In this document: positions 456 to 57,477 of the stretch, one piece after another
Layout of the letters: every line of letters begins with the position of its first letter
Numbering within the stretch: the stretch's first letter is position 1
NCBI GenBank assembly: GCA_016795565.1
Contig: JAEUGW010000017.1
Span: forward strand, 12,433 to 76,432
Reading direction: 5' to 3'
DNA from: Opitutaceae bacterium
Lineage (GTDB): Bacteria > Verrucomicrobiota > Verrucomicrobiia > Opitutales > Opitutaceae
Length of the DNA: 64,000 nucleotides
Notes under the pieces: generated by a model
Database searches by the model: none
The model's input: only the letters and a program-made list of their open reading frames with translations
What the model was told of the DNA's origin: nothing
Made by a program: the position numbers and the translations under genes

Positions 456-1382
456 CTAGGGCGCGGTGGGCTCTTTCGGCTTGGTGCGCTCGCGGATGTT
501 CTTCATCAGCTGGCGAAAGGTGATCTCGGCGCGGACGCGGGTGCGGAAGCTGATATCGGTGCCGTCCGGGCCCCAACTCGTGCGGATGCCGAAGCTCGCG
601 ATCCACTGGGTCTTCGAATTGAAGGTAAACTTGCGCGGCACATACCACTGCACGCCCGGCTGCAGGTAGCAGAAATGGTCCGTCACCTCGCCGATCACGG
701 CGGTCGTTGCGTAGGTGGCGGAGAAGGTATACTTGAGCTGGCCGAGGTCGTAGATGAGGCCGACGGTGCCGTTGACGGAATCCTCGTGTGGCTGGTTGGT
801 GCCGAAGCGGCCGGGGATGTCGCTGGCGTCGATCAGGTCCAGACCGAGGCCGGCGAAGGCGGTGATGCGGCGGTATTGCGGCAGCTTGCGCTGCACGATG
901 AAGCTCGGGGTGAGGTGATACTGGCCGTCGGTCATGTCGAACGGCGGGTTGCCGACCGGCGCGTCCATGGTCAGCGCCAAACTGGTGTCGTAGCCGGTGC
1001 GCGGCCAGTCGTTGAGGAGGTAGCGGGAGCCGAGGCGCACGCGCCCGATGCCGTAGCCGTCGCTGGTATTGTCATCGAGGCCGTGCGTGAAATAGACCGA
1101 GGCCTCGGCGCTGATGTCGAACTTCTCGTTCAGCGCCCAGCGCAGGCCGGTCTCGGTGCGCATGTAGTCGCGGCGGGTGAGGTCGCCGAAATGCGGCCGG
1201 AGGATGATCTTGAAGGTGCCGGGGACATCGAGCTGCGGCAGGTCGTCGAAGATGCCGCTGATGCGGGAGAGGACGGGGCGGCTTTCGGCGGCCTCACCTT
1301 CGGCGAGCTTGGCGGGCGGAGTGGACTGGGCCGAGGCGAGGGCGGAGCCGAGGAGGAAGAGGGAAATCAGGCGGCGGGCCAT
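456..1382 (-). CDS. Hypothetical outer-membrane beta-barrel protein with signal peptide
   Basis: 308-aa ORF with an N-terminal signal peptide (MARRLISLFLLGSALASAQS). It has alternating amphipathic beta-strand-like segments rich in aromatic residues and Gly. It lies 9 nt downstream of the NusG-like gene. Confidence 0.6.
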   Translation of the reverse strand: MARRLISLFLLGSALASAQSTPPAKLAEGEAAESRPVLSRISGIFDDLPQLDVPGTFKIILRPHFGDLTRRDYMRTETGLRWALNEKFDISAEASVYFTHGLDDNTSDGYGIGRVRLGSRYLLNDWPRTGYDTSLALTMDAPVGNPPFDMTDGQYHLTPSFIVQRKLPQYRRITAFAGLGLDLIDASDIPGRFGTNQPHEDSVNGTVGLIYDLGQLKYTFSATYATTAVIGEVTDHFCYLQPGVQWYVPRKFTFNSKTQWIASFGIRTSWGPDGTDISFRTRVRAEITFRQLMKNIRERTKPKEPTAP

Positions 1383-27879: not shown

Positions 27880-28256
27880 GCCTTGGGCGGGAATTTCTTC
27901 AACAATTCTTCAATCTTGGTGAGGAGGCGCGGGAGTTCGACGGGCTTGGTGTCGAAATCGTCGCACCCGGCTTCCAGGGCCTTTTGCCGGTCGCTTTCCA
28001 TGGCATGCGCGGTCAGGGCGATGACGGGGATCCCCTTGGTGGCCGGATCGGCCTTGACCTGGCGGGTGGCGTCCCAGCCGTCCAGCACGGGGAGGCTCAT
28101 GTCCATCAGGATGAGGTCGGGGAGTTCGCTCTTGGCCAGCGCGACGCCCTGGCCGCCGTCAACGGCCAGCGTGAGGGTGTAGCCGCGTTTCTCCAGCCGG
28201 CGGGAGAGCATGTCGCGGTTCATTTCATTGTCTTCGACGAGGAGAATTTTGGGCAT
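27876..28256 (-). CDS. Single-domain response regulator (CheY-like)
   Basis: 126 aa with ILLVEDNEMN, LILMDMSLPVLDG and DFDTKP. Its stop overlaps the downstream start (ATGA). Confidence 0.9.
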   Translation of the reverse strand: MPKILLVEDNEMNRDMLSRRLEKRGYTLTLAVDGGQGVALAKSELPDLILMDMSLPVLDGWDATRQVKADPATKGIPVIALTAHAMESDRQKALEAGCDDFDTKPVELPRLLTKIEELLKKFPPKA

Positions 28257-30646: not shown

Positions 30647-30867
30647 GGGGTTGATTGCAACAAACCCCAAGCCAAAGGATTACGGCACAAAGTCAACGGG
30701 ATAGCTCCCCAGAGGGTTGCTGGCCAACCCGCCCGTGCCAATCCGTGCGCTGAGCGCTGCGGCGAGGGCGAATTGTCGGGCGATTCGTGAACAACGTCGG
30801 CTTGGCGGCTGATGGAACGGCGTTCTAAGAAAGCGCGCGGCTGTGCGTCTGAGGTTTGGAGGCGCCC

Positions 30868-32591: not shown

Positions 32592-33485
<894 letters not shown>

Positions 33486-33508
33486 GTTTCACGCCAACAC
33501 CCTTTACC

Positions 33509-34480
33509 ATGGCCAAGTTCACCAGCACCGAATGGGACGATATCCGCAAAAAGTTCCGCAATTCCATCATGGCGGACACCGCCCTGATCAGCCTCGCGCA
33601 GAACCTCGACACCAAGGAGTGGCCGCACTCCGGCGATGACGAGAAGCCGTCCAAATACATCGAGTTCAGCTACGACGAATTGCTCATGCTGCCGGAGCTC
33701 GCCGGCAATGCCGACAAGGCCGACCACCTGATCGGTATCCTCAAGGAGACCCTGGCCTTTGATGATCCGTTTGGCGACATGGTCGCCCAAGTCGAGGAGA
33801 CCGCCGCCAAGGACAATCCCATCCTCAAGACCCTGGCCCGCCTCAACATCCCTGCGGCCTACCCGATGGCGCTGGCGAATTTCAGCGAAGGCACGCGCAT
33901 CGTCTGCGCATCCGAGGGCGTCAAGACAGTCGGCGAATTTGCCAACCTCGGCCAGCAGATGGCAACCCGCGTGGTGCTCGGGGGCGATTTCCGCAATGCC
34001 CTGAATGCCCTGACCCAGGGTGATGAGGAGGGGATCGGTCAATTCCTGCCCTTCCGCAAGGGCTCCACCGGCCTGCACCTGGCCGAGGCGATTGGCCTGG
34101 TGGCGGCCGGACTGCCGCGGCCTGATCAACTCGGCTTGGCCAAGGCCTATGGCGCCAAGCTCAGCCCGTCCGATGCCGCCGCCGCCAAGACGCTCACGAA
34201 GGAGCAAATCACGAAGCTGGAGTCGGGCCTCCGCGTGACGGCCACGGCCGCCTTTGAGTGGTTCAAGGACCAGAAGGAGGCGATGAGCAAGCTGCTGGAG
34301 AGCGGTGATTCCACCTACGAGCGCTATTTTGTCGTGATCAATGACCCCGCGCGGGAGGCCATTGCCGTGAAGCTGGCGACGGCCATCCACCCGGTATCAC
34401 GCAAGTCTGGCCCCGTGGCTTCCGCGCCAGCCGAAGCCAAGAAGGGCGGTCTGTTCGGCCGCCTGTTTGGCAAGCGCTGA
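33509..34480 (+). CDS. Hypothetical protein, candidate ParA partner, with a C-terminal basic amphipathic tail
   Basis: 323 aa, starting 23 nt after the ParA-like stop. It ends ...AEAKKGGLFGRLFGKR. It has an HhH-like stretch, GVKTVGEFANLG. I recognise no family. Confidence 0.65.
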   Translation: MAKFTSTEWDDIRKKFRNSIMADTALISLAQNLDTKEWPHSGDDEKPSKYIEFSYDELLMLPELAGNADKADHLIGILKETLAFDDPFGDMVAQVEETAAKDNPILKTLARLNIPAAYPMALANFSEGTRIVCASEGVKTVGEFANLGQQMATRVVLGGDFRNALNALTQGDEEGIGQFLPFRKGSTGLHLAEAIGLVAAGLPRPDQLGLAKAYGAKLSPSDAAAAKTLTKEQITKLESGLRVTATAAFEWFKDQKEAMSKLLESGDSTYERYFVVINDPAREAIAVKLATAIHPVSRKSGPVASAPAEAKKGGLFGRLFGKR

Positions 34481-35251: not shown

Positions 35252-35299
35252 GATGGAACCTCGTCCAGTTTGACCTTTCCAAGACCGCACCCCGACCCT

Positions 35300-36595
35300 A
35301 TGTCCATTTCCTCCATGCCTTCCCGTCTGTTCAAACCTGCCGTCATTCTGGCCTTGCTCACCCTGCCGGTCACGCTCCCGGCCCAGACCAGCAGCAGCGA
35401 GGAAGAACGCCTGCAAAAGCTCCTGACCGACTCGACCCAGTGGTATGTGCCGAAAACCACGGTCTCCATCGGGTTCCGGTTGCTCACCTCCGGCGGCAAT
35501 GTGCGATACGGCAATCTTGGCCGCGTCGATTCTGGCTTGGAAGCAGTGGCACCGGCTTCCGCCGGCGTCGTCACGCGTATTTACAACAACGGCATCGTCG
35601 GGGCCGATGCGGTCCGGGCCAGCGAAAAGGACGCCAACGGCAACCAGATACCTCCCGATGTAAACGGCCGTTACCAGACATTTGGCACCACCACCGCCGC
35701 AGATGGCTCCACCATCACCGTCCAGACCGGCGACTACCGCAGCTATGTTGCCGGACTCACCCGCAACTGGAACTACGCGTCGGCCGATCAGGTGACCGCC
35801 GATGGGCGCATCGGCTTCAGCACCTACCGCGCGACCAGCAACGGCGGCTCCGCGATGAAGGACACCGCCGGCTCCGGCGGCGTTGATTTCCAGGTCACGC
35901 GCGCTCTCGGGAAATTCTCCAGCCACACCGAGTGGGGGCTGACGGCGGGCATCGCGCTCAACGGCATCAACAACAAGACCAGCGGCACGGTTGTTTCCAC
36001 CCTGCATACGAACACCGACTACTATTCCCTGAACGGGCAGCCGGCTCCCACGGCTCCCTACGACAGCACCACCGCGCTGACCGACTTTACCAACAGCCAG
36101 GGCACGGTGTTCCCGTCCTCCTTGGAGACCTCGGTGCCGCTGGCCGCCTTGCCCGGTTCATCCACTTCGTCCGAAGTGGTGGGCGGAACGACGGTGAACG
36201 GCAACTGGCAGATCAAGGGGGCCTATTTCCTCATGCGCATCGGGCCCAGCGTGCGGGCGCAGTTGACGCAGCGGCTCGGTCTTAGCGCCAGCCTGGGCGT
36301 CGCCGGGGCCTACTCGGGCAGCACCTATAGCGTGATCGAAACTTTTGTCGCACCGGACAGCAACGGGGTCGTCATCAGCACCCCGGACCCCGAGAAGAGC
36401 AGCACCAGCGAGTTCCTCACCGGCTACTATGCTGACCTGAACCTCGATTGGGCGGTTTCGGAGCGCACCGGCTTCTTTGGCGGGCTCAGCGCCCAGCAAC
36501 TGGGCGACTACGATCAGGTGCTCAACGGCCGCACCGCCCACATTGACCTCGGCAATTCCGTCGGCATCCGCGGTGGCATCAGCATCAAGTTCTGA
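35300..36595 (+). CDS. Hypothetical outer-membrane beta-barrel protein
   Basis: Signal peptide (LFKPAVILALLTLPVTLPAQT). The sequence is S/T/G/N-rich with alternating strands. The C-terminus ...GIRGGISIKF ends in Phe, as is typical of OMPs. Confidence 0.65.
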   Translation: MSISSMPSRLFKPAVILALLTLPVTLPAQTSSSEEERLQKLLTDSTQWYVPKTTVSIGFRLLTSGGNVRYGNLGRVDSGLEAVAPASAGVVTRIYNNGIVGADAVRASEKDANGNQIPPDVNGRYQTFGTTTAADGSTITVQTGDYRSYVAGLTRNWNYASADQVTADGRIGFSTYRATSNGGSAMKDTAGSGGVDFQVTRALGKFSSHTEWGLTAGIALNGINNKTSGTVVSTLHTNTDYYSLNGQPAPTAPYDSTTALTDFTNSQGTVFPSSLETSVPLAALPGSSTSSEVVGGTTVNGNWQIKGAYFLMRIGPSVRAQLTQRLGLSASLGVAGAYSGSTYSVIETFVAPDSNGVVISTPDPEKSSTSEFLTGYYADLNLDWAVSERTGFFGGLSAQQLGDYDQVLNGRTAHIDLGNSVGIRGGISIKF

Positions 36596-43518: not shown

Positions 43519-44133
43519 GTGAGCCCAGTCATCACCATTCATCTGGCAACGGGCAACGCGCACAAGGTGCAGGAGATGCAGGCGCTGGCCGTGGCTTCAG
43601 CGCTGCCGCTGAACATCGTCGCGGCGGCGGGGATGCCACCCGTGACGGAGGACACCGGCACCTTCACGGGCAACGCCCGGAAAAAAGCCGCCGCGCTCAA
43701 GGCCGTGCTGCCTCCCGATGTCTGGGTGTTGGCGGACGACAGCGGGCTCTGTGTGGACGCGCTGGACGGAGCGCCCGGGGTGGAGTCGGCCTACTATGCC
43801 GGCCCGGCGGGCGACAGCGCGGCCAACCTGGCGAAACTGGTTGCCGTGATGCGGGCCGTGCCGCCGGGTCGGCGCGGGGCGCACTTCGCCTGTGTGCTGG
43901 TGCTGTTGGGACCCGGCGGGACGGAACAGGTGTTTGAGGGGCGCAGTCCGGGCACGCTGCGCGTGGAGCCGGCCGGTGGGTTGGGATTCGGCTATGATCC
44001 GCTTTTTGTCCCGGAGGGCTTTGACCGCACCTACGCGGAGCTTTCGGCGACCGAGAAAAACAAAGCCAGCCACCGCGGACGCGCGTGGCTGGCCTTGGCG
44101 GAGTGGTGGCGGCTTACGGTTATTATGGAATAG
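43519..44133 (+). CDS. rdgB: Non-canonical purine NTP pyrophosphatase (RdgB/HAM1 family)
   Basis: Motifs ATGNAHKVQE, ETG.TF..NA..KA, DDSGL.VDAL.G.PG..SA, GFGYDP.F and SHRG.A. The start is uncertain (GTG at 43519, or 43489). Confidence 0.85.
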   Translation: MSPVITIHLATGNAHKVQEMQALAVASALPLNIVAAAGMPPVTEDTGTFTGNARKKAAALKAVLPPDVWVLADDSGLCVDALDGAPGVESAYYAGPAGDSAANLAKLVAVMRAVPPGRRGAHFACVLVLLGPGGTEQVFEGRSPGTLRVEPAGGLGFGYDPLFVPEGFDRTYAELSATEKNKASHRGRAWLALAEWWRLTVIME

Positions 44134-47100
44134 CCGGGAGGCTCTCGATATAGGCCTTGCGGACAGCGTAGTCGGAGGAAGAAAGCTCGCGGAAACCGAG
44201 GCGATCCGCGCCGATGACGAGCGGCTCGAGCGGGATATCGTGCTCGGCGATTGTGAAGCCGTAATGCAGACCCCAGAAGCGGTTGGGCGCAGCATAGCAG
44301 CGGATATTCCAGGGCTCCATGGCCACGCGGCTTTCAAAGAGAGCGATCATGGAGCCACGAATGTAGAGGGAAGCATTGCTGCTGATGCTCGAGTCCATGT
44401 CGGAGTGCCAGTCTTCAATCAGGCGGGGAAAGTTGTGGGCTCCGCCACTGTATTGGGCATTGGCGGCGGCCAGGGGAGGCCGGTCAGTCAGGCCGTTGGC
44501 GTTGTGATTGCTGGGGATCATGCCCATGAGCAGCGCGGTGGAGAACTCTGTGGCGGCGGGCGGCGGTAATTTGGTCTTCCAGAGCGTAGCACCGCCGGTG
44601 CCGGGGGTGCTGCTCGTGGGCAGGGCACCCGGCTTGATGCCCGTGGCATCAGTGCCCAGGCCCTCGTATTGATTGGAGGAAGAGGGGGCCGCCGTGTCCC
44701 AGGTGCTGACCCAGCTGCTGTTGGTTATGCGAAAGGCGCTCACGGCGTCATTCCAGCCATTGGTCTGGAAATAAGGCGCGCTGGCATTGCTGTAGGTCGG
44801 TTGGGAAAGCAGCGTGATGGCGTCGGCCATGACGGAGGCCAGCTTTTCGTTCGCCGAATCGGGGTAGGTGGCGCTGAAGCCGCCGTAGAAATTGGGTGTG
44901 CCGGTGCCGGTGTCGCTGGTTGAGCTGTCGATCGTGCCGTCGGCATTGAAGTGGCCGATAATATAGGCGGCGTCGTTGGTCACAAAGGTAAACCCGGTCT
45001 TGGTCGCGGTGGTGTAAGTGGCGGCGGGTCCGCGGCCATTGATCAGACGCACACCGGAGTCAATTCGGTCGTTCTTGCCGGCGGTGATGGTCTGGGCGCG
45101 GCGCTCGGCATCGACCGAATGAATGTAGATCGCGACGCCGTCATACCAGGCGAGAGCGAGATCGGGGGCGGGGACGATGAGTGTGCGCGGATCTGCGGGG
45201 ACAAGGCCCGGGGTGCTGGGAGTGAGATACGCCGGCGTGTAGTAGAGCTGGAACGGATCGGGCCGGTTCATGTCCTCGGCGGTGCCGGTCGTCGGAAACA
45301 CTGTGTAGGAAAATGCGGCGGCCAGGTCGCTATCGGTGCCGAGGTCGAGGGTCGTAGGCACGCCGCCAGCGTTAAATATGGAGTTGGTCCAGTTGCCCGC
45401 CACCGGGGCGGCGGTGTTGTAGCCTGAGCTGGTGATGGCGCTGGAGACCACGCGGCTGAACATCATCTTGAAGCGGGCCATGTCGAAATCGATCTTGGCG
45501 ATCGCCCGGGGCTTGTAATTGGTGGTGGAACGCGCGGTGCCGCCGACGATGTTCGAGTTGTAGCCGACATTGCCGTTGGCCCGTCGTGCATCGAAGAAGT
45601 AGGCATCGGCTGGGTAGGGTTGCGTGGCATTCTCGGCCGGGAAGTTGTCCCCTGAACCACCAATGACGCTGTAGCCAGTGTAGGGCAGCGGGTCGACAGT
45701 GACGACAGTATTGTCTGCGACGGGGGCAGCCAGACCTGGAACAATGGTGATCACGCCGCCGTTAAGCGACGATGCGACCAGATATTTGTCCGAGCCGATA
45801 TGAAGGATGTTGCCTGCATGAATGGTGCCGACGCCAGTGTCCAGCACCAGGGTCTGGGCACCAGCGGGGTAACCGGCGGCGTTGTTGACAAAGTAATTCT
45901 TGCCTGTGCCCATGGCGCTGCTGTTCGCGTCGATGGTGACGGGGGCATTGTCAGCCGCGCCGGCAGCCGGGCGGATGCCGGGCGAGGCGATACCGATGGG
46001 ATAAACGGTGGCGGTGGTGGCGGGAGCCGCCACGGGGGCGCGGGTGACCAGATAGCGGTGGGGGTTAATGTAAACCATGTTCCCGGGCAGGATGGTCTTC
46101 GTGTCACCATCAAGGTTGAGGCTGGTGGCATTCTGCGCGGCGGCGCCGGCCATCACGAAAGTCGTGCCCGTGCCGCGGGCCGGGGGCGTGACAGTGACAA
46201 CCGCGTTGTCCGCCACCGCAACGGCGAGGCCGGGTTGGCAAAGTTTGAGCACTCCGCCCACAAGGTCGGCCTGCACCAGGTAACGGTAAGCGCCAATGGT
46301 CACCATCTCGCCGGCCCGGATGAGGCCGGTGCCGGTATCGACAGCGAGGTCGGTGGTGCCGGCCGCGTAGCCGCTGGCGTTGTTGACGAGGTAACCAGTT
46401 CCAAGGTTGTAGCCTTGCTGGACAGTGCGGACGACTTGGTTGGATCCCACCACTGTGCCCTCGGTGTAGCGGTTGGGCAGCACATTGTCATACATCGTGT
46501 CATCCGCCATGAGGGCGGGGGTGGTGCCGGGGGTGCTGCCTTGGTTCCAGCCATAGGAGGGCTGGCCGGGCAGGACGACTTCGCGAAGGGTATGCGTGCC
46601 GTCACCGTTGATGATGTTGAGCCACGAGCGGTAGGAGCGGGGCAAAATGGGCTGATCCGTGCCGTCGGGCAGTTTGCCGGTGCGGATGGTGTCGTCGGGG
46701 TTGACAACGATGTAGAGTCCAGCCTTGCGGGCGATTTTCAGCGCCTTGGTGGCATCATTGTCGCTCGTGACCTCCCAGAGTGCGGTGGAGTTATTCCATT
46801 TGTAGGGGTTCCGCGGCTCGATGAGCTGGCGGCCGCTATCGCGGTCGTCCTCAGGCGTGGTGGGGAGGTTGGTCTCATTGTAGGAACCGATGCCGGGAAG
46901 CTCCAGCTTGGAGACGCCGTGGACGTTGGTGCGGACATTGCCGCCGTAGGTCGTCGTGGCAAAGGTGCGGAACTGATTCTGGGTGGTAGTCGTCTCGGTT
47001 GCGGTGCCGTATTTTTGATCCCGCCACACGCCGCCGGAGGACTTCAGATTCACCCCGGCACCGGAAACGGGCTTGTAGAAAACGCCGCCGGTGCCCCCGG

Positions 47101-47863
47101 CACCAGCCGACGTGTCGCCGGCGCGCTTGATGTAGGTGGCCTTCATCTGGCCGTCGGCATACAGGCCGCCGGCGGCCGTGACGCGGCTGGTGAAAGTGAT
47201 GGTGCCCGAACCGCCGTTCTCACCCCGGGCGGTCAGGCGGTTGTTGGTGTGGACAGGGCCGGCGATGGTCATGTTGGGGCCGGGAAAGAGCTCCAGATCC
47301 ATGTTGTAGAAAATGCCGAACTGGAAGAGGGGCGTGAGGCTAAGCTGCATGTCCTGCTCGGCGTAGGAGCTGACGGAGCCCATACCGGGGTGGGAGGCCG
47401 TGGCCTTGGCGATGATCGGGATCTTGGCGGTGCTGACCTGGAGGCCGTTGTTGGGGCTGGTCACATCAGTGATCAGGACGTAGGGCGAGGCACTCTCGAT
47501 GGCGGCGCGCATCTCCATGCCGACGGAGCTGCTCGTATATGTCGTGTCGAGGATGCTGCTGGGCGGCATGTGGATGCGATTGCTGCTCGTGCCGGTCCAA
47601 GGGAACTTGCCGACCGGGGCGGAACCCATGCGGTTGAGCTTTGGGATGAGCTGCTCGGCGGAGTAGAGCGCGATGTTCTCGGACATGTTCTTGGCCCGGA
47701 GAATCAGACGATTGCGCTCGTTGCCGCGCCGCTCATTCATGCTATAGCTAAGCATGCTGGCGGTGAGCAAAGCCATCATGGCTGTCAGCATCACGACGGT
47801 GAGCAGGGCGGACCCTTTCTTACTGGCGGGAAAAGTAGCGGTGCAGTTAGGGGTTGAGTGCAT
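44123..47863 (-). CDS. Giant PilX-N-like pseudopilin-associated protein (1246 aa) with three internal repeats
   Basis: The N-terminus KKGSALLTVVMLTAMMALLTASMLSY resembles the PilX N-terminal hydrophobic helix and lacks Glu at +5. The sequence is T/G/S/N-rich. Three related modules of about 75 aa occupy residues about 486-725. The gene starts 6 nt after the upstream prepilin-like gene. Confidence 0.8.
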   Translation of the reverse strand: MHSTPNCTATFPASKKGSALLTVVMLTAMMALLTASMLSYSMNERRGNERNRLILRAKNMSENIALYSAEQLIPKLNRMGSAPVGKFPWTGTSSNRIHMPPSSILDTTYTSSSVGMEMRAAIESASPYVLITDVTSPNNGLQVSTAKIPIIAKATASHPGMGSVSSYAEQDMQLSLTPLFQFGIFYNMDLELFPGPNMTIAGPVHTNNRLTARGENGGSGTITFTSRVTAAGGLYADGQMKATYIKRAGDTSAGAGGTGGVFYKPVSGAGVNLKSSGGVWRDQKYGTATETTTTQNQFRTFATTTYGGNVRTNVHGVSKLELPGIGSYNETNLPTTPEDDRDSGRQLIEPRNPYKWNNSTALWEVTSDNDATKALKIARKAGLYIVVNPDDTIRTGKLPDGTDQPILPRSYRSWLNIINGDGTHTLREVVLPGQPSYGWNQGSTPGTTPALMADDTMYDNVLPNRYTEGTVVGSNQVVRTVQQGYNLGTGYLVNNASGYAAGTTDLAVDTGTGLIRAGEMVTIGAYRYLVQADLVGGVLKLCQPGLAVAVADNAVVTVTPPARGTGTTFVMAGAAAQNATSLNLDGDTKTILPGNMVYINPHRYLVTRAPVAAPATTATVYPIGIASPGIRPAAGAADNAPVTIDANSSAMGTGKNYFVNNAAGYPAGAQTLVLDTGVGTIHAGNILHIGSDKYLVASSLNGGVITIVPGLAAPVADNTVVTVDPLPYTGYSVIGGSGDNFPAENATQPYPADAYFFDARRANGNVGYNSNIVGGTARSTTNYKPRAIAKIDFDMARFKMMFSRVVSSAITSSGYNTAAPVAGNWTNSIFNAGGVPTTLDLGTDSDLAAAFSYTVFPTTGTAEDMNRPDPFQLYYTPAYLTPSTPGLVPADPRTLIVPAPDLALAWYDGVAIYIHSVDAERRAQTITAGKNDRIDSGVRLINGRGPAATYTTATKTGFTFVTNDAAYIIGHFNADGTIDSSTSDTGTGTPNFYGGFSATYPDSANEKLASVMADAITLLSQPTYSNASAPYFQTNGWNDAVSAFRITNSSWVSTWDTAAPSSSNQYEGLGTDATGIKPGALPTSSTPGTGGATLWKTKLPPPAATEFSTALLMGMIPSNHNANGLTDRPPLAAANAQYSGGAHNFPRLIEDWHSDMDSSISSNASLYIRGSMIALFESRVAMEPWNIRCYAAPNRFWGLHYGFTIAEHDIPLEPLVIGADRLGFRELSSSDYAVRKAYIESLPAIP

Positions 47864-47869
47864 GGCGGG

Positions 47870-48694
47870 TTATTTCCGGGGGGAGATGGTGTAATTGAAG
47901 CTACTGCTGGAGAGCATGTTGTTCACGGTGCTGCCATTGATGAACTCGACATTGATGGAGATGAAGCCGTCGGATGGGGTGGAGGTCGGCGACTCGGTGG
48001 AGAAGATCGGGTAGAGGTCGCCAGAGACATAGGGACCGTTGGGATAGGTGCCGGTCACCGGACTAACAGGCACGGCGCGACCTTTGCTGCGGGCATTCAG
48101 CAAGCGGGTGCCGGCGCGGCTCGGGTTGGAGTTCAGGTTGATGGCGCTCAACTCGGCGGCGATGCCGCTGAAGGGGTGGCCGTTGGAGGATGCTGCGGAG
48201 CCTTCACCCCAGTCGTCGGTCTCATAATAGCGGACCGGCGCCTCCGCGTTCACTCCCGCCTGGTTCGTCGTGACCCGGTAATAGATGCGGATCTGTCGGA
48301 TGTCGGTGTTGCGGTAGAGCGAGGTCTGGGTCACCAGGACGATACAGTCGCCGTGGGCGATCCACTTGTCATAGTCGTTGTCGGCGGAATCGATCTCAGG
48401 ACCCGTCGGGAAGATCGGATCGGTGGTCACATTCACCGAAGTGTCGAGCTTCGTGTAGTAATCGAAAAGGTAGAAGGTCGAGGCGTCGAGGGTCTCCTTG
48501 GTGATTTGCGCCGTGAACGCCCGGAGGCTGGCGTTGGTCGCCAGGCGCTGGGTATCTTTATACATGGTGCGCAGGCCGAAGAGGAAGGTGCTCATGGTCA
48601 TACCCAGCACCAGCACGACGATGGTCATGCTGATCATGACCTCGGCCAATGTGAAACCGGAGGTCGCTAGGCGGAGATTGCGGGTGGTTTTCAT
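47870..48694 (-). CDS. Prepilin-type N-terminal cleavage/methylation domain protein (274 aa)
   Basis: MKTTRNLRLATSG|FTLAEVMISMTIVVLVLG matches the G-F-T-L-x-E type IV prepilin motif, followed by a hydrophobic helix. Confidence 0.85.
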   Translation of the reverse strand: MKTTRNLRLATSGFTLAEVMISMTIVVLVLGMTMSTFLFGLRTMYKDTQRLATNASLRAFTAQITKETLDASTFYLFDYYTKLDTSVNVTTDPIFPTGPEIDSADNDYDKWIAHGDCIVLVTQTSLYRNTDIRQIRIYYRVTTNQAGVNAEAPVRYYETDDWGEGSAASSNGHPFSGIAAELSAINLNSNPSRAGTRLLNARSKGRAVPVSPVTGTYPNGPYVSGDLYPIFSTESPTSTPSDGFISINVEFINGSTVNNMLSSSSFNYTISPRK

Positions 48695-48803
48695 GCGCTG
48701 TGGATCCGATACGCCGAAGATTGCTTAGGCTCGGCTGGAGGAAGGGGATTGAGGGTGGATTGCATGGGGCTCGGACGTTATTGGGGACTTGCCTGAGTAT
48801 CTT

Positions 48804-49496
48804 TTACTTATCAAAGCGGCTGCGGAGGAACACCTCCCGGTCGCGCACGGTGCGGGTGGCCGCACCGTCCTCAAAGGAGTAAGTGTAGACGATGGTGATC
48901 TTCTTCACCTCGGAGACATTGCCGTCGGGGACCTCGTCGATCCAGATCCAGAGATTCAGGTTGATCTGCTGGGACATCGAGCCGGTCACGGTGGAGAGGG
49001 GCATGGCACCGATCCAATTGTCGATGGCATCCGATCCGTCGGCACCCGCGCCAGCCGCCGGCGCATTGGGAGCGGGAGTGGTGGTGGGGCCCTTGGGCGT
49101 ATCGGCGCTGCCATCGGCCAGAGTCGGGGTGTAAACGACGCGCAGCCACTTGACCGTGTTCTGGTTGATGCGGACCCGAACATTCGGTGCGGGTGTCGCT
49201 GCCGCGTCGGTGGGGTCCACCACCTGATTGGGGAGCAGCTCGGTATATTCAAGCTGCTTGATCTGCTCGACAATGCCGTAGACCACGCTGGTGCAGGCGG
49301 CATGGAGGACGCTGGCCTCTGTCGTGCGACGCGACTGGATGAAGGTGCCGATGAAGCTGAGCATCACCGTCGCCATGAGCGTCAGTGACACCATGACTTC
49401 GACGAGCGTCAGGCCGCGTTCGTGCAGGGCGGCAGCGCGATGGCGGGACCGCGCGGAGTCGGGCAAGGCAGGGAGGGGTGCGGGGTGGTGTGGCAT
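48804..49496 (-). CDS. Prepilin-type N-terminal cleavage/methylation domain protein (about 230-242 aa)
   Basis: HERG|LTLVEVMVSLTLMATVML matches the prepilin motif. The start is 49496 (MPHHP) or 49532, which gives an unusually long leader. Confidence 0.75.
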   Translation of the reverse strand: MPHHPAPLPALPDSARSRHRAAALHERGLTLVEVMVSLTLMATVMLSFIGTFIQSRRTTEASVLHAACTSVVYGIVEQIKQLEYTELLPNQVVDPTDAAATPAPNVRVRINQNTVKWLRVVYTPTLADGSADTPKGPTTTPAPNAPAAGAGADGSDAIDNWIGAMPLSTVTGSMSQQINLNLWIWIDEVPDGNVSEVKKITIVYTYSFEDGAATRTVRDREVFLRSRFDK

Positions 49497-49601
49497 TGCA
49501 CACCCATCTTGCCAGAAATACGGCCCGGGCAAAACAGACGTAAGGCCTGTGCATTAGCCTCTATCCTGGCCAGAGGCCAAAGCCTCTAACCACGGAAGGC
49601 C

Positions 49602-50273
49602 TCAGGATGCGCGCCCGCGCCCGGCCTCGGCGTAGAGGGCGGCGGCTTGGGAGCGTCGGGCGATGTCCAGCTTCGTGAAAATCGTGGCCAGGTAGTTCTT
49701 CACCGTTTTCTCGGTCAAACCCAGGCGGTCGCCGATTTCCTTGTTGGTGAGCCCCTCCGCGAGGAAGGCGACGACCCGGCGTTCCTGCGGGGACAATTGG
49801 TCAAGCTTGGCCGCCGCAGATTTTTCGCCGCGGTGCTTCATGAGGTTCAGCACCTGGCCGGACATCGAGGGATCGAGAACCGCCTGCCCCCCCGCGACGG
49901 CGCGGAGGGCGCTGGCGAGGGCCTGGCCGTCGTTGTCCTTGAGCAGGTAGCCCTGCGCGCCGGCGCTCATGGCCTCCTGCAAATTGTGCGCGTTGCTGCT
50001 GGAGGTGAGGATGAGCACCTGGGTCTGGGCGCGGGATTTCTTGATCTCCCGGCAAGTCACCACGCCGTCCCTGTCGGGCAGGTGGAGATCGAGCAGGGCG
50101 ATGTCGGGCTTGAGCTTCGCGACAGCGGCGAGCCCTTCGGCCGAAGAGCCGGCTTCGCCGACAATCTGGATGTCGGGGCAATCCTCCAGGGCGCTGCGCA
50201 GACCGAGCCGGATGATCGGGCTGTCGTCGATCAGCAGCACGCGGATCAGGCGGGTGCTCGGAGGGGCGTTCAT
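49602..50273 (-). CDS. NarL/FixJ-family response regulator (REC + LuxR HTH)
   Basis: Motifs VLLIDDSPI, IALLDLHLPDRDG and LSPQERRVVAFLAEGLTNKEIGDRLGLTEKTVKNY. Confidence 0.92.
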   Translation of the reverse strand: MNAPPSTRLIRVLLIDDSPIIRLGLRSALEDCPDIQIVGEAGSSAEGLAAVAKLKPDIALLDLHLPDRDGVVTCREIKKSRAQTQVLILTSSSNAHNLQEAMSAGAQGYLLKDNDGQALASALRAVAGGQAVLDPSMSGQVLNLMKHRGEKSAAAKLDQLSPQERRVVAFLAEGLTNKEIGDRLGLTEKTVKNYLATIFTKLDIARRSQAAALYAEAGRGRAS

Positions 50274-51523
50274 GCGGGCGACGCAACCGGGAGGGTCAGT
50301 AAAACGCGAGTCCCTTTTCCCACGGCGGATTCGATGCGCAGGCTGCCTCCGAGTGCGGCGGCGCGCGCCTCCATGTTGACCAGGCCGTGCCCGCCCGGGC
50401 TGCCCGCCTGCGGGACAAATCCGCGTCCGTCATCCTGCACCGCCAGCGCCACCTGCTGATCCCCCCGTCCAACCAACAGGGTGAGCCGGCGCGCCTGGCC
50501 GTGACGCAGGCTGTTGCTCAGCGCCTCGCGGAGGATGTTCATGATCTCGGCGATTTGCAGCGGCGGGATCAGCGCCACCGCGTCCGCGTCAATGCGCTGT
50601 TCGATCTGCACCTCCTGCCCGGCGGTGAAAGTGCCGATCAGTTCCTCGAGGGCCCCCGCGAAAGTCTGCGTCGTCACGCGGGTCGGCTCCAACTCCTCCA
50701 AGTAGGCGCGCACTTCGCGATTGAGGCGGCGCAGTTCGCCCATGCACTGGGCGAGGCGGCCCTGCAACTCGGGGGCCAGGGCGGATTTCTTCTGCACGCT
50801 CTCCAGGGTCAGACAGACGGCATAAAGGGTCTGGCAGATGTTGTCGTGCAACTCCCGCCCGAGGCGGACCCGCTCGGCCACCGAGTGGCCCAGGAGCGAG
50901 CGGTTCACCTGGAGATCCTCCTCGGCGCGGACCCGGGCCCCGTGTTCCTCGGCCAGGGCGGTGCCCCGCTCGTGCGAGATCTTGGCCAGGTGCTCCAGGC
51001 CGGCGGCTTGGGCCCGGGAGGCGTCCCATGGCGCGCGGCTGCCCGCCTCACCGGCCGGATGTCGCCGGGCGGCCATGATCACGAGGAGCAGCGGCACCAG
51101 CGCCAGCAGCAGCGACAGCAGGATGATCACGGCGGTCACGCGCTGATGGAGCATCTGCGCCTTCAACAGGGCCGGCGGGGCGAAGGATACCCGCACCTGC
51201 CAGCCGGGGGCCGCGCCCAGTTGTTCGGTAAACGTCAGGGCCCCGCGCGCCGGGTTGGTGGCGAAGGGAGCATCAATCCGGCTCAGCTCGATGGCTCCGC
51301 CGAGCATGGCGCCCAGCTCACGCTGGAAGCCCGCATCCCAGCTTTCCGGCGGGCGGCCGCTCACCGTGACGGCCCGGTTGAGGCGTTCCCGCGCCTCGGT
51401 CACCGCTATGCCCTGCAATTGCCGTGTCTCCCGCCGCAGCCACCATTGGAGGGTGATCGTCGCCCCGAGGAAGAGCAGCAGGAACAGCAGGGCCAGGCCG
51501 AGCGTGCGGGTGGAGAAATTCAT
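50270..51523 (-). CDS. Sensor histidine kinase, HisKA_3 (NarX/DegS-like) type
   Basis: Two TM segments and an H-box ELHDNICQTLYA. The ATPase motifs are LREALSNSLRHG, DDGRGF and HGLVNMEARA. The ATGA overlaps the response regulator gene. Confidence 0.9.
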   Translation of the reverse strand: MNFSTRTLGLALLFLLLFLGATITLQWWLRRETRQLQGIAVTEARERLNRAVTVSGRPPESWDAGFQRELGAMLGGAIELSRIDAPFATNPARGALTFTEQLGAAPGWQVRVSFAPPALLKAQMLHQRVTAVIILLSLLLALVPLLLVIMAARRHPAGEAGSRAPWDASRAQAAGLEHLAKISHERGTALAEEHGARVRAEEDLQVNRSLLGHSVAERVRLGRELHDNICQTLYAVCLTLESVQKKSALAPELQGRLAQCMGELRRLNREVRAYLEELEPTRVTTQTFAGALEELIGTFTAGQEVQIEQRIDADAVALIPPLQIAEIMNILREALSNSLRHGQARRLTLLVGRGDQQVALAVQDDGRGFVPQAGSPGGHGLVNMEARAAALGGSLRIESAVGKGTRVLLTLPVASPA

Positions 51524-56385: not shown

Positions 56386-57477
56386 CTATTCCCTCAGCGG
56401 CAGTTGCAGGGTGAAGGTCGTCCCGGCGCGGGTGGAGTGAAAGTCGATCGCCCCATGGTGCGCCTCGACGACGGACTTGGCGATGGCCAGGCCGAGGCCG
56501 GTGCCGCCGATTTTGCCCTGGCTGACGAATGGTTCAAAAAGAGTCGTCTGGATGGCCCGTGGGACACCCGGCCCGTTGTCCGCGACGGTGATCACGCAAT
56601 GGCTCTTCACGCGGCGGGCGGCGACGGTTATCCGGCCGCCCGGTTGCTTGCCCAGTGCCTCGCGGGCGTTGGTAACCAGGTTTTGCAGCACCCGGAGGAG
56701 GCGGTCGGGGTCGAGCGGCAGCTTGAGGGCGGTGGGCCTGACGCGCAGCTTCACGCCCACCTGCTCGAACGCGACGATGTTGTTCTCTTGCAACTGGGCG
56801 AACACCTCCCCCAACGGCGCGATGCGCAGGGACAGTCGGGTTTCGCCGCGGGCGAAGTCCAGCACGCCCTCCACCATGTCGCCCAGCCGGCCGACCTGCC
56901 GGAGGATCATGGCGCAGAGCTCCTGCGTGCCGGGCTGGCGGTCGCGCTTGGCGATGAGCTCGGCCGCGAGCTTGATGGTGGAGAAGGGGCCGCGAAAATC
57001 ATGCACCATGCCGTTGGCCATCTCGCCAATCAGGGAGAGCTTCTCCTTGCGCACGACCTCGGTGACGTAACGCGCGTTCGTGGCCCGCAGGTCCTCGCTG
57101 ATGTGGCTGAAGAGCCGGAGCACGGTGTGCCAGGAGGACCGGGCGAGCAGTTGCAGAAAGGGGCGGGGGGCGATGCGGCCGAGCTGGACCGGGCCGTCGG
57201 CCACCGCCGAGGTGCTGCGGGTGGAGCCGTCCAGCACGCCGAGTTCGCCAAAATAATCGTCGGGCCCCTTGTAGGCGATGATCTGCGCGGCGCCGCCGGG
57301 GGACTGCTTGGTCAGGGCCACCCGGCCGTGCAGCACGAGGTAGATGCAGTTCGATTCGCTGCCTTCCTCGAAAATGACGGCCTGATGGGGGAAACGGACG
57401 AGACGCACCGCCTTGGCCAGCACGGCCCCCTGGGCGGCGGGGAAATGGCTGATGAAGCGGTGCGAGCGGACATCCAT
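56386..57477 (-). CDS. Cyclic-nucleotide-binding domain histidine kinase (soluble)
   Basis: The N-terminal cNMP-binding-like region contains IFEEGSESNCIYLVLHGRV...FGELGVLDG..RSTSA. An H-box-like MVHDFRGP follows. The HATPase motifs are NLVTNAREA, DNGPGV and GTGLGL. There are no TM segments. Confidence 0.8.
   Translation of the reverse strand: MDVRSHRFISHFPAAQGAVLAKAVRLVRFPHQAVIFEEGSESNCIYLVLHGRVALTKQSPGGAAQIIAYKGPDDYFGELGVLDGSTRSTSAVADGPVQLGRIAPRPFLQLLARSSWHTVLRLFSHISEDLRATNARYVTEVVRKEKLSLIGEMANGMVHDFRGPFSTIKLAAELIAKRDRQPGTQELCAMILRQVGRLGDMVEGVLDFARGETRLSLRIAPLGEVFAQLQENNIVAFEQVGVKLRVRPTALKLPLDPDRLLRVLQNLVTNAREALGKQPGGRITVAARRVKSHCVITVADNGPGVPRAIQTTLFEPFVSQGKIGGTGLGLAIAKSVVEAHHGAIDFHSTRAGTTFTLQLPLRE

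What the first reader, a model, noticed from the sequence alone, without database searches (positions are those of the whole stretch)
44123..49532. Three-gene prepilin / PilX-like cassette ending in a 1246-aa protein, with no pilus or T2SS machinery nearby
Seen:
- Three consecutive minus-strand genes are present.
- Two have canonical prepilin cleavage/methylation N-termini (RG|LTLVEVMVSL... and SG|FTLAEVMISM...).
- The third starts 6 nt after the second. It has a PilX-N-like hydrophobic N-terminus (KKGSALLTVVMLTAMMALLTASML) without Glu5, followed by more than 1200 aa of T/G/S/N-rich sequence.
- No secretin, PilB/GspE ATPase, PilC/GspF platform or prepilin peptidase is in the window.
- By eye the cassette looks slightly less GC-rich than the flanking housekeeping genes.

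Established, from memory and to be verified: TIGRFAMs lists 'Verru_Chthon cassette proteins A-D'. Protein A is very large and B-D carry prepilin-type N-termini. These are multi-copy cassettes of unknown function in Verrucomicrobia.

Inference: this is probably such a cassette with one small member missing or diverged. It would encode a minor-pilin-like priming complex that displays a giant tip protein (adhesin or enzyme). No function has been described for it.
Basis: partly seen in the sequence, partly recalled or inferred. Interest (0 to 1): 0.7.

Follow-up and report, generated by a model that had tools for sequence, protein, structure and literature searches.

The report
Pilus-tip gene cassette with giant cap
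Three co-oriented genes in an Opitutaceae (Verrucomicrobiota) genome most likely encode the tip complex of a type IV pilus-like filament whose cap subunit has grown to 1,246 residues, apparently switched on through a conserved palindromic DNA site by the two-component regulator next door; it is a new variant of a known kind of system, not the 'Verru_Chthon cassette' first suggested.

Summary
Three minus-strand genes (48804-49496, 47870-48694, 44123-47863) encode two prepilins that keep Glu5 and a 1,246-aa protein with a GspK/PilX-type N-terminus lacking Glu5. The window holds no pilus or T2SS machinery.

The Verru_Chthon assignment fails: models B and C score far below cut-off and model A does not hit. 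By weak, N-terminal-only profile matches the genes fall in the order PilV/GspI/ComGE-like, ComGF-like (GspJ/PilW position), GspK/ComGG-like. The giant is a distant, partial homologue of cyanobacterial HpsA (40/40 members, 62 vs 400 bits), recently described as an expanded tip pilin, 'PilX_EPS'.

The gene order holds in 59-60 of 60 assessable Opitutaceae cassettes. The wider superfamily has at least 3,042 clusters. A confident AlphaFold model of the giant (pLDDT 86, pTM 0.88) has no PDB neighbour. Its variable centre holds 0, 3 or 4 copies of an ~80-aa domain.

Two new links were found. An 18-bp palindrome (TAGAGGC-N4-GCCTCTA) lies between the adjacent NarL-type regulator and pilin1, in 34/68 cassettes against ~2 expected. 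In at least 11 relatives the cassette lies within 10 kb of a secretin operon.

Best reading: a regulated filament-priming tip complex displaying a giant adhesin-like cap (confidence ~0.6). It is a new variant of a known kind.

The parts
50270..51523 (-). Sensor histidine kinase (417 aa; HisKA_3 + HATPase_c) with two predicted membrane segments flanking a ~110-aa periplasmic loop. It is the first gene of the co-oriented block.
   Evidence: Pfam. Hydrophobic segments at about residues 7-25 and 128-150. A homologous kinase lies upstream on the same strand in 29/52 assessable cassettes.
49602..50273 (-). NarL/LuxR-type response regulator (223 aa; Response_reg + GerE), overlapping the kinase gene by 4 nt.
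   Evidence: Pfam. Upstream on the same strand in 28/30 loci syntenic with the window and 8/26 loci in other chromosomal contexts.
49571..49588 (.). 18-bp palindrome TAGAGGCTTTGGCCTCTG (7-4-7 inverted repeat) in the regulator-pilin1 gap. Candidate operator for the NarL-type regulator.
   Evidence: Only match in the 64-kb window. All exact matches in the loci lie just upstream of pilin1. Present with <=2 mismatches within 300 nt upstream of pilin1 in 34/68 cassettes, against 0.027 per 300 nt elsewhere. Variants do not restore pairing. No Rfam match. Coordinates.
49557..49563 (-). Third TAGAGGC half-site, a direct repeat of the left arm, 7 nt downstream of the palindrome.
   Evidence: Conserved column block in the alignment of 20 orthologous gaps. 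Coordinates.
48804..49496 (-). pilin1: prepilin of 230 aa with a 28-aa leader, cleavage site ERG|LTLVE, Glu5 kept. PilV / GspI / ComGE-type minor pilin.
   Evidence: N_methyl 23.8 > 21.2. Family members match PilV TIGR02523 in 43/45 (best 2.3e-10), ComGE in 41/45 and GspI in 16/45, all below cut-offs. Start codon conserved.
47870..48694 (-). pilin2: prepilin of 274 aa with a 13-aa leader, cleavage site TSG|FTLAE, Glu5 kept. Minor pilin in the PilW / GspJ / ComGF position.
   Evidence: TIGR02532 16.5 > 16.3. ComGF in 38/47 members and PRK10557 in 27/47, N-terminal region only. AlphaFold model pLDDT 80 with a 55-residue N-terminal helix followed by beta-strands. 505 homologous clusters, all listed ones ~250-285 aa.
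44123..47863 (-). Giant cap subunit (1246 aa). It has a 17-aa leader, a GspK/PilX-type N-terminus KKG|SALLTV without Glu5, a conserved N-module (~1-480), a variable centre and a conserved C-module (~756-1246). Distant, partial homologue of HpsA.
   Evidence: HpsA NF038301 61.6 bits (cut-off 400), E 3e-17; 40/40 members. hhalign N-terminus vs E. coli GspK 40% identity, E 4.4e-4. Never Glu at +5 in 65 cassettes. AlphaFold pLDDT 85.8, pTM 0.88. No PDB neighbour.
45683..46405 (-). Three tandem ~80-aa repeats inside the giant protein (residues 487-727). This is its most variable part. Copy number is 0, 3 or 4 in relatives.
   Evidence: r1 vs r3 55% identity, E 2e-25. Copy number against size class and per-region identity (0.35-0.43 vs 0.5-0.67). 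Match to a stretch of phage major head protein family phrog_283, E 2.9e-8.

Best explanation
The three genes encode the tip (priming) complex of a type IV pilus-like filament, in the canonical order: a PilV/GspI-like subunit, a PilW/GspJ-position subunit, then a PilX/GspK-like cap.

Shown:
- Both small proteins have class III (prepilin) signal sequences with Glu5.
- The third has the cap-type N-terminus without Glu5.
- The order is invariant across the family.
- The cap is a distant homologue of HpsA.

Inferred mechanism:
- A prepilin peptidase encoded elsewhere cleaves after the Gly.
- The three N-terminal helices bundle in the inner membrane.
- The cap, which cannot accept a further subunit above it, takes the distal position.
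- The trimer nucleates polymerisation of a major pilin by an ATPase, platform and secretin machine encoded elsewhere.
- The ~1,200-residue ectodomain therefore ends up at the filament tip.
- There it most likely serves as a plug and adhesin or ligand-binding head. The 0/3/4-copy ~80-aa domains form its variable, exposed part.

Inferred regulation: the adjacent membrane histidine kinase and NarL-type regulator switch the cassette on by binding the conserved 18-bp palindrome plus third half-site upstream of pilin1.
For: - Prepilin motifs and model hits.
- Family-wide classification in the order V/I/GE, then GF (J/W position), then K/GG.
- N-terminus of the giant aligns with E. coli GspK residues 4-64 at 40% identity, E 4.4e-4.
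- Glu5 is kept in pilin1 and pilin2 and never present in the giant, across 65 cassettes from several genera.
- The gene order is present in 59/59 and 60/60 assessable cassettes. It is also kept in a 25%-identical 769-aa paralogue.
- The genes are tightly spaced (6 nt in the window) or overlapping (4 nt between pilin1 and pilin2 in relatives).
- The HpsA model is hit by 40/40 members plus 10/10 distant relatives. Matched stretches are collinear: N-terminal region to profile ~290-330, residues 932-1021 to 957-1063, C-terminal region to ~1335-1400.
- The preprint 10.64898/2026.02.12.705559 reports HpsA-like proteins as PilX with an expanded inserted domain. They co-occur with PilV, and deleting the locus abolishes motility.
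- ComZ shows that a large domain inserted in a GspK-like pilin fold forces tip location.
- The giant's model begins with a long helix and strands and ends with a long strand plus helix. This fits a fold interrupted near its C-terminal strand.
- The cassette lies within 10 kb of a 4-gene + secretin operon in at least 11 relatives.
- T4P genes including PilT are reported in Opitutaceae genomes.
- Regulation: the palindrome is enriched about 18-fold upstream of pilin1. It is unique in the window and is kept even where no regulator gene is adjacent.
Against: - All profile matches to named minor pilins cover only the N-terminal helix and stay below the curated cut-offs.
- Foldseek found no GspI/J/K, PilX, ComZ or any other significant PDB neighbour for the giant or for pilin2.
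- No fourth (GspH/FimU/FimT-type) adapter pilin lies in or next to the cassette.
- No machinery, major pilin or peptidase is in the window, and the rest of this genome could not be read.
- The four genes before the relatives' secretin have no detectable similarity to PilM/HofM.
- The secretin matches GspD slightly better than PilQ.
- Binding of the regulator to the palindrome is inferred from position and symmetry only.
- Half of the cassettes lack a recognisable palindrome.
Confidence: 0.6

Rival explanations
1. It is the tip of a short periplasmic T2SS-type or Hps-type pseudopilus rather than a surface pilus. The giant GspK-like cap stays under or in the secretin. It acts as the piston head or gate that pushes a substrate, for example an exopolysaccharide or a protein, through the outer membrane.
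For: - The giant's N-terminus matches GspK.
- The relatives' neighbouring secretin matches GspD best, at 1e-43.
- HpsA was first defined genetically as required for hormogonium polysaccharide secretion.
- In Horticoccus a Poly_export (Wza-like) gene lies ~1.4 kb from the cassette.
Against: - pilin1 matches PilV in more members than GspI: 43/45 against 16/45.
- The operon next to the secretin has the sizes and order of pilMNOPQ (346/213/188/151/633 aa), not gspC-gspD.
- The preprint reinterprets HpsA-type proteins as caps of long adhesive motility pili.
- No glycosyltransferase or polysaccharide genes accompany the cassette in the window.
- Variable repeat copy number is more typical of exposed adhesins.
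Confidence: 0.17
2. It is the tip receptor of a competence (DNA-uptake) pilus, analogous to ComZ-PilA2 of Thermus or ComGE-GF-GG of Firmicutes. The giant cap would bind DNA.
For: - The best and most frequent named matches include the ComG series: ComGE 41/45, ComGF 38/47, ComGG 7/40.
- ComZ is a precedent for a large inserted domain in a tip pilin that binds DNA.
Against: - The matches are N-terminal only.
- Foldseek did not retrieve ComZ.
- The giant relates to the HpsA/'EPS' branch of PilX, not the 'Com' branch described in the preprint.
- The protein has few basic residues (K 2.6%, R 4.3%).
- No competence genes are nearby.
Confidence: 0.07
3. The giant protein is not a filament subunit. 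It is a membrane-anchored or secreted enzyme or adhesin (signal-anchor N-terminus) that merely shares an operon with two pseudopilins, for example as their cargo.
For: - Many invariant polar residues lie in the conserved N- and C-modules, as in an active or binding site.
- There is no structural match to any pilin.
- The protein is large for passage as a folded cap.
Against: - The cleavage-type motif R(G/A)|SAL(I/L)TV is conserved in 65 cassettes. It mirrors GspK's RG|VALLIV rather than a Sec signal.
- The gene order is invariant and the coupling to pilin2 is tight.
- It is homologous to HpsA, which the preprint classes as PilX.
- There is no Pfam enzyme domain.
Confidence: 0.08
4. It is a member of the TIGRFAMs 'Verru_Chthon cassette' (proteins A-D) with one small member lost.
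For: - It resembles that cassette in concept: prepilin-type small proteins next to a very large protein in Verrucomicrobiota, sometimes in several copies.
- There are weak N-terminal hits of pilin2 members to TIGR02599 (16/47) and TIGR02598 (10/47).
Against: - Scores are 14.7 vs 256.5 and 13.6 vs 51.4 bits.
- There is no hit to protein A or D models at E <= 1.
- Distant relatives of the giant also hit only HpsA.
- The three-gene form is the conserved state, not a degraded four-gene one.
Confidence: 0.03

Closest known systems
HpsA / 'PilX_EPS' with HpsB-D pseudopilins of filamentous cyanobacteria (NCBIfam NF038301; bioRxiv 10.64898/2026.02.12.705559)
   Same: - A very large protein with a PilX-type N-terminus is encoded next to prepilin-type minor pilins.
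- Sequence homology is detectable in every family member (E down to 4e-20) and is collinear over several stretches.
- The proposed role is a cap, plug or adhesin of a type IV filament.
   Different: - It scores only ~60 bits against a 400-bit cut-off, so it is not an HpsA equivalog.
- It occurs in a different phylum.
- The gene order is reversed: pilins first and giant last, against hpsA first.
- No hps glycosyltransferase genes are nearby.
- It has its own 0/3/4-copy repeat module.
- It has a dedicated NarL-type two-component system and a palindromic operator.
- The predicted fold gave no beta-solenoid hit in Foldseek.
GspI-GspJ-GspK pseudopilus tip complex of type II secretion (PDB 3CI0) and PilV-PilW-PilX of type IVa pili
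   Same: - Three consecutive genes with the same order of subunit types.
- The last subunit lacks Glu5 and carries an inserted domain.
- The giant's N-terminal 58 residues are 40% identical to E. coli GspK.
   Different: - The cap is 4-6 times larger.
- No GspH/FimU adapter gene is present.
- No machinery genes share the operon.
- The globular domains are unrecognisable by sequence or Foldseek.
ComZ-PilA2 tip receptor of the Thermus thermophilus competence pilus (PMC6561018)
   Same: It is a precedent for a large domain inserted into a GspK-like pilin fold that can only sit at the filament tip, encoded beside a partner minor pilin.
   Different: - ComZ is ~550 aa with a triangular beta-solenoid and binds DNA.
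- No structural or sequence match to it was found here.
fimS-algR two-component system next to fimU-pilVWXY1Y2E in Pseudomonas aeruginosa (from established knowledge, not tested here)
   Same: A two-component system is encoded directly beside a minor-pilin/tip-protein operon and controls it. A ~120-kDa tip-associated protein (PilY1) is present.
   Different: - AlgR is a LytTR-type regulator, not NarL-type.
- PilY1 is a separate non-pilin protein, whereas here the large module is fused to the cap pilin itself.
Verru_Chthon cassette proteins A-D (TIGR02600/02598/02599/02596)
   Same: It is the same general idea: prepilin-type proteins plus a very large protein, in Verrucomicrobiota, in multiple copies in some genomes.
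   Different: All four models fail. This family lies in Opitutaceae and relates to HpsA instead.

Membership tests
Verru_Chthon cassette (TIGRFAMs A-D) | Large protein matches TIGR02600 (protein A) above cut-off | tested here: not met
   No hit at E <= 1 for the window protein. At E <= 0.001, 40 family members and 10 distant relatives hit no Verru_Chthon model; HpsA is the only large-protein family they match.
Verru_Chthon cassette (TIGRFAMs A-D) | Small proteins match TIGR02598 (B), TIGR02599 (C) and TIGR02596 (D) above cut-off | tested here: not met
   C scores 14.7 vs 256.5 bits and B 13.6 vs 51.4, over the N-terminal ~70 residues only. D gives no hit. Family-wide, 16/47 and 10/47 members give weak hits.
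Type IV pilin-like proteins (class III signal peptide) | Short basic leader ending in Gly/Ala, then a ~20-residue hydrophobic segment with Glu at +5; N_methyl / TIGR02532 match | tested here: met
   pilin1: N_methyl 23.8 > 21.2. pilin2: TIGR02532 16.5 > 16.3, but Pfam 20.8 < 21.2, so borderline. The motif with Glu5 is conserved in about 60 orthologues of each.
Type IV pilin-like proteins (class III signal peptide) | Pilin 'lollipop' fold: long N-terminal helix packed on an antiparallel beta-sheet | tested here: inconclusive
   The pilin2 model has a helix at 16-70 followed by 7 strands (pLDDT 80). Foldseek gave no significant PDB hit.
Type IV pilin-like proteins (class III signal peptide) | Cleavage and N-methylation by a prepilin peptidase (PilD/GspO) | not testable with these tools
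   No peptidase gene lies in the window, and the rest of the genome is not available.
GspK / PilX / ComGG-type cap subunit | Prepilin-like N-terminus lacking Glu5 | tested here: met
   KKG|SALLTV in the window. R(G/A)|SAL(I/L)TV in 65 cassettes, with Thr, Val or Ser at +5 and never Glu.
GspK / PilX / ComGG-type cap subunit | Sequence match to the family models | tested here: inconclusive
   GspK NF037980 scores 17.2 vs 130 bits, and ComGG 14.6 vs 40. 9/40 and 7/40 members match. hhalign vs E. coli GspK gives E 4.4e-4, probability 33%, over 58 N-terminal residues. Pfam PilX_N gives no hit.
GspK / PilX / ComGG-type cap subunit | Pilin fold interrupted by an inserted domain | tested here: inconclusive
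   The secondary-structure order of the confident model fits this: an N-terminal helix and strands, and a long strand plus helix at the C-terminus.
Core tip complex (GspH-I-J-K / FimU-PilV-W-X) | Consecutive genes in the order I/V, J/W, K/X | tested here: met
   The order is supported by family-wide best matches. It is conserved in 59/59 and 60/60 cassettes.
Core tip complex (GspH-I-J-K / FimU-PilV-W-X) | A fourth adapter pilin (GspH/FimU/FimT) in the set | tested here: not met
   There are only two prepilin motifs in the window. No third prepilin lies within the cassette in any locus.
Core tip complex (GspH-I-J-K / FimU-PilV-W-X) | Assembly machinery (ATPase, platform, secretin) in the same genome | not testable with these tools
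   It is absent from the window. In relatives a secretin operon lies within 10 kb of the cassette. T4P genes are reported in Opitutaceae.
HpsA (NCBIfam NF038301, equivalog) | Whole-protein score above 400 bits | tested here: not met
   61.6 bits, E 3.1e-17. The best family member reaches E 4.2e-20.
HpsA (NCBIfam NF038301, equivalog) | Encoded with pseudopilins (hpsB-D) and glycosyltransferases (hpsE-G) | tested here: not met
   Two prepilins are adjacent, so that part is met. No glycosyltransferase lies in the cassette or its flanks.
NarL/LuxR-family two-component regulation | HisKA_3 kinase plus REC-GerE regulator, and an inverted-repeat operator at the target promoter | tested here: inconclusive
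   The domains are present. The 7-4-7 palindrome is enriched upstream of pilin1. Binding was not tested.

The most novel reading that the evidence does not exclude
The conserved core of the giant cap, which has no counterpart among solved structures, is a new kind of tip module. It does more than stick. One possibility is that it recognises or processes the cell's own exopolysaccharide. Another is that it acts as a surface or mechanical sensor whose assembly state is read in the membrane by the adjacent histidine kinase. Such a kinase-regulator-operator-cassette circuit would be a self-contained 'tip-complex sensing' loop. It would be specific to Verrucomicrobiota and replicated in the large (at least 3,000-cluster) superfamily.
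Probability: 0.15. Interest if true: 0.75.

Novelty: new variant of a known kind. Interest (0 to 1): 0.5.

Why it matters
Type IV filaments owe their versatility largely to what sits at their tip. Tip proteins are known in detail only for a few Proteobacteria, Thermus and, very recently, cyanobacteria. This cassette extends the 'cap pilin expanded into a giant head' design (HpsA/PilX_EPS) to Verrucomicrobiota, an abundant and little-studied soil and freshwater phylum.

It also provides several things to work with:
- a large, well-conserved family with a confident predicted structure and no solved relative;
- a modular variable region;
- a simple, testable regulatory circuit of kinase, NarL-type regulator and an 18-bp operator;
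- a recurrent link to a secretin operon.

If confirmed, it gives a handle on how Opitutaceae attach to or move over polysaccharide-rich surfaces. It also offers an independent lineage in which to test whether giant PilX-type caps replace PilY1-type adhesins. And it corrects a tempting but wrong database assignment.

Tried and rejected
- **Verru_Chthon membership:** rejected on model scores. A shorter prepilin/prepilin/DUF7305 set next to the cassette in L006, tried as a possible true Verru_Chthon example, also fails those models.
- **Horizontal acquisition, suggested by the lower GC:** rejected. GC3 is typical, and the cassette is syntenic across genera.
- **Structure-based identification:** Against viral models it gave only weak local hits, with TM <= 0.08. 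pilin2 gave no PDB hit.
- **Sequence searches of all three families against PDB:** nothing useful.
- **Word-indexed profile search:** it added no distant relatives.
- **PilM identity of the 346-aa gene next to the relatives' secretin:** not demonstrable. There is no Pfam hit on record, no PDB hit with the sequence or a profile, and hhalign against E. coli HofM is negative.
- **RNA explanation for the palindrome:** there is no Rfam match. Sequence variants do not restore pairing. I therefore read it as a protein-binding site.
- **Promoter and terminator scan:** nothing above the shuffled expectation.
- **Literature:** no paper in the library mentions Verru_Chthon cassettes or such cassettes in Verrucomicrobia.

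Full report
**1. The observation**

The window carries three consecutive minus-strand ORFs at 48804-49532, 47870-48694 and 44123-47863 (242, 274 and 1,246 aa).
- The first two have prepilin-type N-termini, HERG|LTLVEVMVSL and TSG|FTLAEVMISM. They reach or nearly reach the curated thresholds. N_methyl scores 23.8 and 20.8 bits against 21.2, and TIGR02532 scores 16.4 and 16.5 against 16.3.
- No other prepilin motif exists in any frame of the 64 kb.
- The third gene starts 6 nt after the second. It begins MHSTPNCTATFPASKKG|SALLTVVMLTAMMALLTASML, with Thr rather than Glu at +5. It is rich in A, T, G, S and N.
- Pfam scans of 40 other coding-like ORFs found housekeeping and signalling genes. They found no secretin, secretion ATPase, platform protein or prepilin peptidase.
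- A GspE-type Walker A motif, validated on E. coli GspE, is absent from all frames.
- GC is slightly lower over the cassette (0.61-0.63 against 0.65-0.69). Third-position GC is typical of the genome, and the deficit is in first positions. This reflects amino-acid composition, not foreign DNA.
- The alignment of orthologous upstream regions shows a conserved ATG that corresponds to 49496. pilin1 is therefore probably 230 aa with a 28-residue leader.

**2. The family it was filed under**

The Verru_Chthon models do not recognise these proteins.
- Protein C scores 14.7 bits against 256.5, and protein B 13.6 against 51.4. Both cover only the generic N-terminal helix.
- The giant protein does not hit protein A, and nothing hits protein D, even at E <= 1.
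- Family-wide, only 16/47 and 10/47 pilin2 members give such weak hits.
- Ten distant relatives of the giant hit no Verru_Chthon model.
- A shorter prepilin/prepilin/DUF7305 set that neighbours the cassette in one relative also fails these models.

Membership is therefore rejected. The conceptual resemblance remains.

**3. What the three proteins are**

Scanning whole alignments of orthologues gives a consistent, though sub-threshold, pattern.
- pilin1 matches PilV in 43/45 members (best E 2.3e-10), ComGE in 41/45 and GspI in 16/45.
- pilin2 matches ComGF in 38/47 and an E. coli prepilin-peptidase-dependent protein model in 27/47.
- The giant matches the GspK N-terminus in 9/40 and ComGG in 7/40. 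Its first ~58 residues align with E. coli GspK residues 4-64 at 40% identity (hhalign E 4.4e-4).

ComGE-GF-GG, GspI-J-K and PilV-W-X are the same three positions of a type IV filament tip complex, in the same gene order. This equivalence is established knowledge and is summarised in the papers read.

Across 65 cassettes from several Opitutaceae genera, pilin1 and pilin2 always keep Glu5. The giant always has R(G/A)|SAL(I/L)TV with Thr, Val or Ser at +5. Loss of Glu5 is the hallmark of the terminal cap subunit.

All these matches concern the N-terminal segment. The globular parts are not recognisable by sequence or by Foldseek.

**4. The giant protein**

Every one of 40 family members, and ten more distant relatives, match the HpsA model (best E 4e-20). 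The matches are several collinear stretches, far below the 400-bit equivalog cut-off.

HpsA is the large protein of the cyanobacterial hps locus and is encoded next to pseudopilins. A 2026 preprint classifies HpsA-like proteins as PilX cap pilins with a greatly expanded inserted domain ('PilX_EPS'). These strictly co-occur with a PilV subfamily and are proposed to plug the tip and act as an adhesin. Deleting such a locus in Thermosynechococcus abolished motility. ComZ of Thermus is the structural precedent. It has a large domain inserted between the penultimate and last strands of a GspK-like fold, which can only be accommodated at the tip.

AlphaFold2 gives a confident, compact model of residues 47-1246 (pLDDT 85.8, pTM 0.88). 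Its element order fits such an interrupted pilin fold: a long helix and long strands at the start, and a long strand plus helix at the very end. The model has no significant neighbour in the PDB, and no PDB sequence matches the family profile.

Conservation is high in residues ~1-480 and ~756-1246, with many invariant polar residues. It is lowest in residues ~500-750. That region consists of three tandem ~80-aa repeats.
- Relatives have none (~1,000-aa class), three (~1,160-1,280 aa) or four (~1,310 aa).
- The repeat matches an ~80-residue stretch of a phage major-head-protein family (E 2.9e-8). This agrees with the weak local hits to phage structural proteins.
- I infer that it is a small, exposed, modular domain of the decoration type.

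**5. Distribution and conservation**

- The close family has about 280 clusters at 90% identity, none with an informative name. Some are labelled 'Tfp pilus assembly protein PilX' by JGI.
- Among species-representative genomes, 248 stretches encode a relative. The best 80 all come from Opitutaceae or Opitutales: Lacunisphaera (79% identity, the closest), Oleiharenicola, Horticoccus, Opitutus, Didemnitutus and Cephaloticoccus.
- pilin2 lies directly upstream of the giant in 60/60 assessable cassettes, and pilin1 in 59/59.
- Whole cassettes are duplicated in tandem in some genomes (L039, L061, L031, L047).
- A 769-aa paralogue only 25% identical keeps the same pilin-pilin-giant layout.
- An exhaustive profile search finds 3,042 clusters (50% identity) at E <= 0.001 and 1,476 at E <= 1e-10. 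Many are 650-950 aa and match the N- and C-modules without the central insert. The members sampled that carry source names are Verrucomicrobia or Opitutaceae hypothetical proteins.

**6. Links to machinery**

The window has none, and the rest of its genome is not available. In a relative whose giant is 74% identical, the cassette sits ~1.1 kb from a convergent operon of 346, 213, 188 and 151-aa genes followed by a 633-aa secretin.
- The secretin is genuine: GspD 1e-43 and PilQ 3e-36.
- Homologues of this operon lie within 10 kb of the cassette in at least 11 loci, and none lies in the window.
- The sizes and order match pilMNOPQ (from established knowledge). However, the 346-aa protein shows no detectable similarity to PilM/HofM. 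I report it only as a secretin operon.
- A published genome study reports type IV pilus genes, including PilT, in Opitutaceae.

**7. Regulation**

A HisKA_3 kinase with two membrane segments, and a NarL-type regulator, lie directly upstream on the same strand.
- The regulator is there in 28/30 loci syntenic with the window and in 8/26 loci with other contexts.
- The 105-nt gap between the regulator and pilin1 contains a perfect 7-4-7 palindrome, TAGAGGCTTTGGCCTCTG (49571-49588). A third TAGAGGC half-site lies 7 nt downstream (49557-49563). Further conserved boxes follow before the start codon.
- The palindrome core occurs once in the window. In the loci, every exact match lies just upstream of pilin1.
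- With <=2 mismatches it is found within 300 nt upstream of pilin1 in 34/68 cassettes, against 0.027 per 300 nt elsewhere. This includes three loci that lack an adjacent regulator gene.
- Variants change bases without restoring pairing, and Rfam has no match. A protein-binding operator is the better reading.

That the neighbouring regulator binds it is an inference from position and from the known preference of GerE-type dimers for inverted repeats.

**8. Explanation and rivals**

The best-supported reading (about 0.6) is a regulated tip or priming complex of a type IV pilus-like filament, whose cap subunit displays a ~1,200-residue head.
- A periplasmic T2SS/Hps-type pseudopilus tip involved in secretion is the main rival (about 0.17).
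- A competence-pilus receptor (0.07), a non-filament enzyme or adhesin (0.08) and true Verru_Chthon membership (0.03) are less likely.

The weaknesses are these. Similarity to named minor pilins is N-terminal only. There are no structural neighbours. The adapter pilin is missing. Machinery in this genome is unseen. Operator binding is untested.

**9. Novelty**

This is a new variant of a known kind. The design principle of a cap pilin expanded into a giant head is known from ComZ and, since 2026, from HpsA/PilX_EPS. The following appear undescribed in the searched literature:
- the verrucomicrobial family itself;
- its fold, which has no solved relative;
- its repeat module;
- its dedicated two-component system with a conserved operator;
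- its recurrent pairing with a secretin operon.

Noticed in passing
window 48695-48803: A 109-nt non-coding spacer separates pilin1 and pilin2 in this genome. In the relatives whose gene calls were listed the two genes overlap by 4 nt (ATGA). The spacer has lower GC and no recognisable feature.
   Followed up: partly
L006 5793-8411; also L045, L048, L051, L052, L054, L065: A second, shorter kind of minor-pilin set occurs near the cassette, sometimes in several copies. It has a PilV-like gene of ~130-190 aa, a second prepilin of ~180-200 aa and a ~440-490-aa PilX-like protein with Pfam DUF7305. In L006 it lies between the two-component genes and the giant cassette. It does not match the Verru_Chthon models.
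   Followed up: partly
L079 4025-7497 (-), 8445-12883 (+), 15460-19918 (+): Three pilin-pilin-giant cassettes of different subfamilies (giants 25-39% identical to the window's) lie within 20 kb of one uncultured verrucomicrobial contig, one of them inverted.
   Followed up: partly
L083 8468-9049; L010 14079-14717; L012 11711-12730: An Rce1-like (CPBP family) intramembrane protease gene follows the giant gene in the three close relatives whose cassette lies beside the secretin operon. It is absent next to the window's cassette. Its relation to the cassette is unknown.
   Followed up: no
window 26230-27879 (-) and 28283-30670 (-): A protein combining HisKA, a receiver domain and an adenylate/guanylate cyclase domain lies downstream of a hybrid histidine kinase (HAMP-HisKA-HATPase-two receivers) on the same strand. 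A small ORF (27876-28256) separates them. This could be a phosphorelay ending in cyclic-nucleotide synthesis.
   Followed up: no
window 56386-57477 (-): A histidine kinase with an N-terminal cyclic-nucleotide-binding domain sits next to the Kup potassium transporter gene. The pair is conserved in relatives (L001, L007, L084).
   Followed up: no
window 5044-6099 (+): A DDE_3-type transposase with winged-helix domains (IS630-like) is the only obvious mobile-element gene in the window. It lies far from the cassette.
   Followed up: no
window 9928-11337 (+), 33305-34480 (+), 35270-36595 (+), 456-1382 (-): Four coding-like ORFs of 308-469 aa have no Pfam match at E <= 1e-4.
   Followed up: no
L003 14413-15910: In Horticoccus, a copy of the cassette that lacks the adjacent kinase has a Poly_export (Wza-like) gene and a REC-GerE regulator on the opposite strand, ~1.4-2.2 kb downstream of the giant gene. 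This may hint at a link to polysaccharide export.
   Followed up: no
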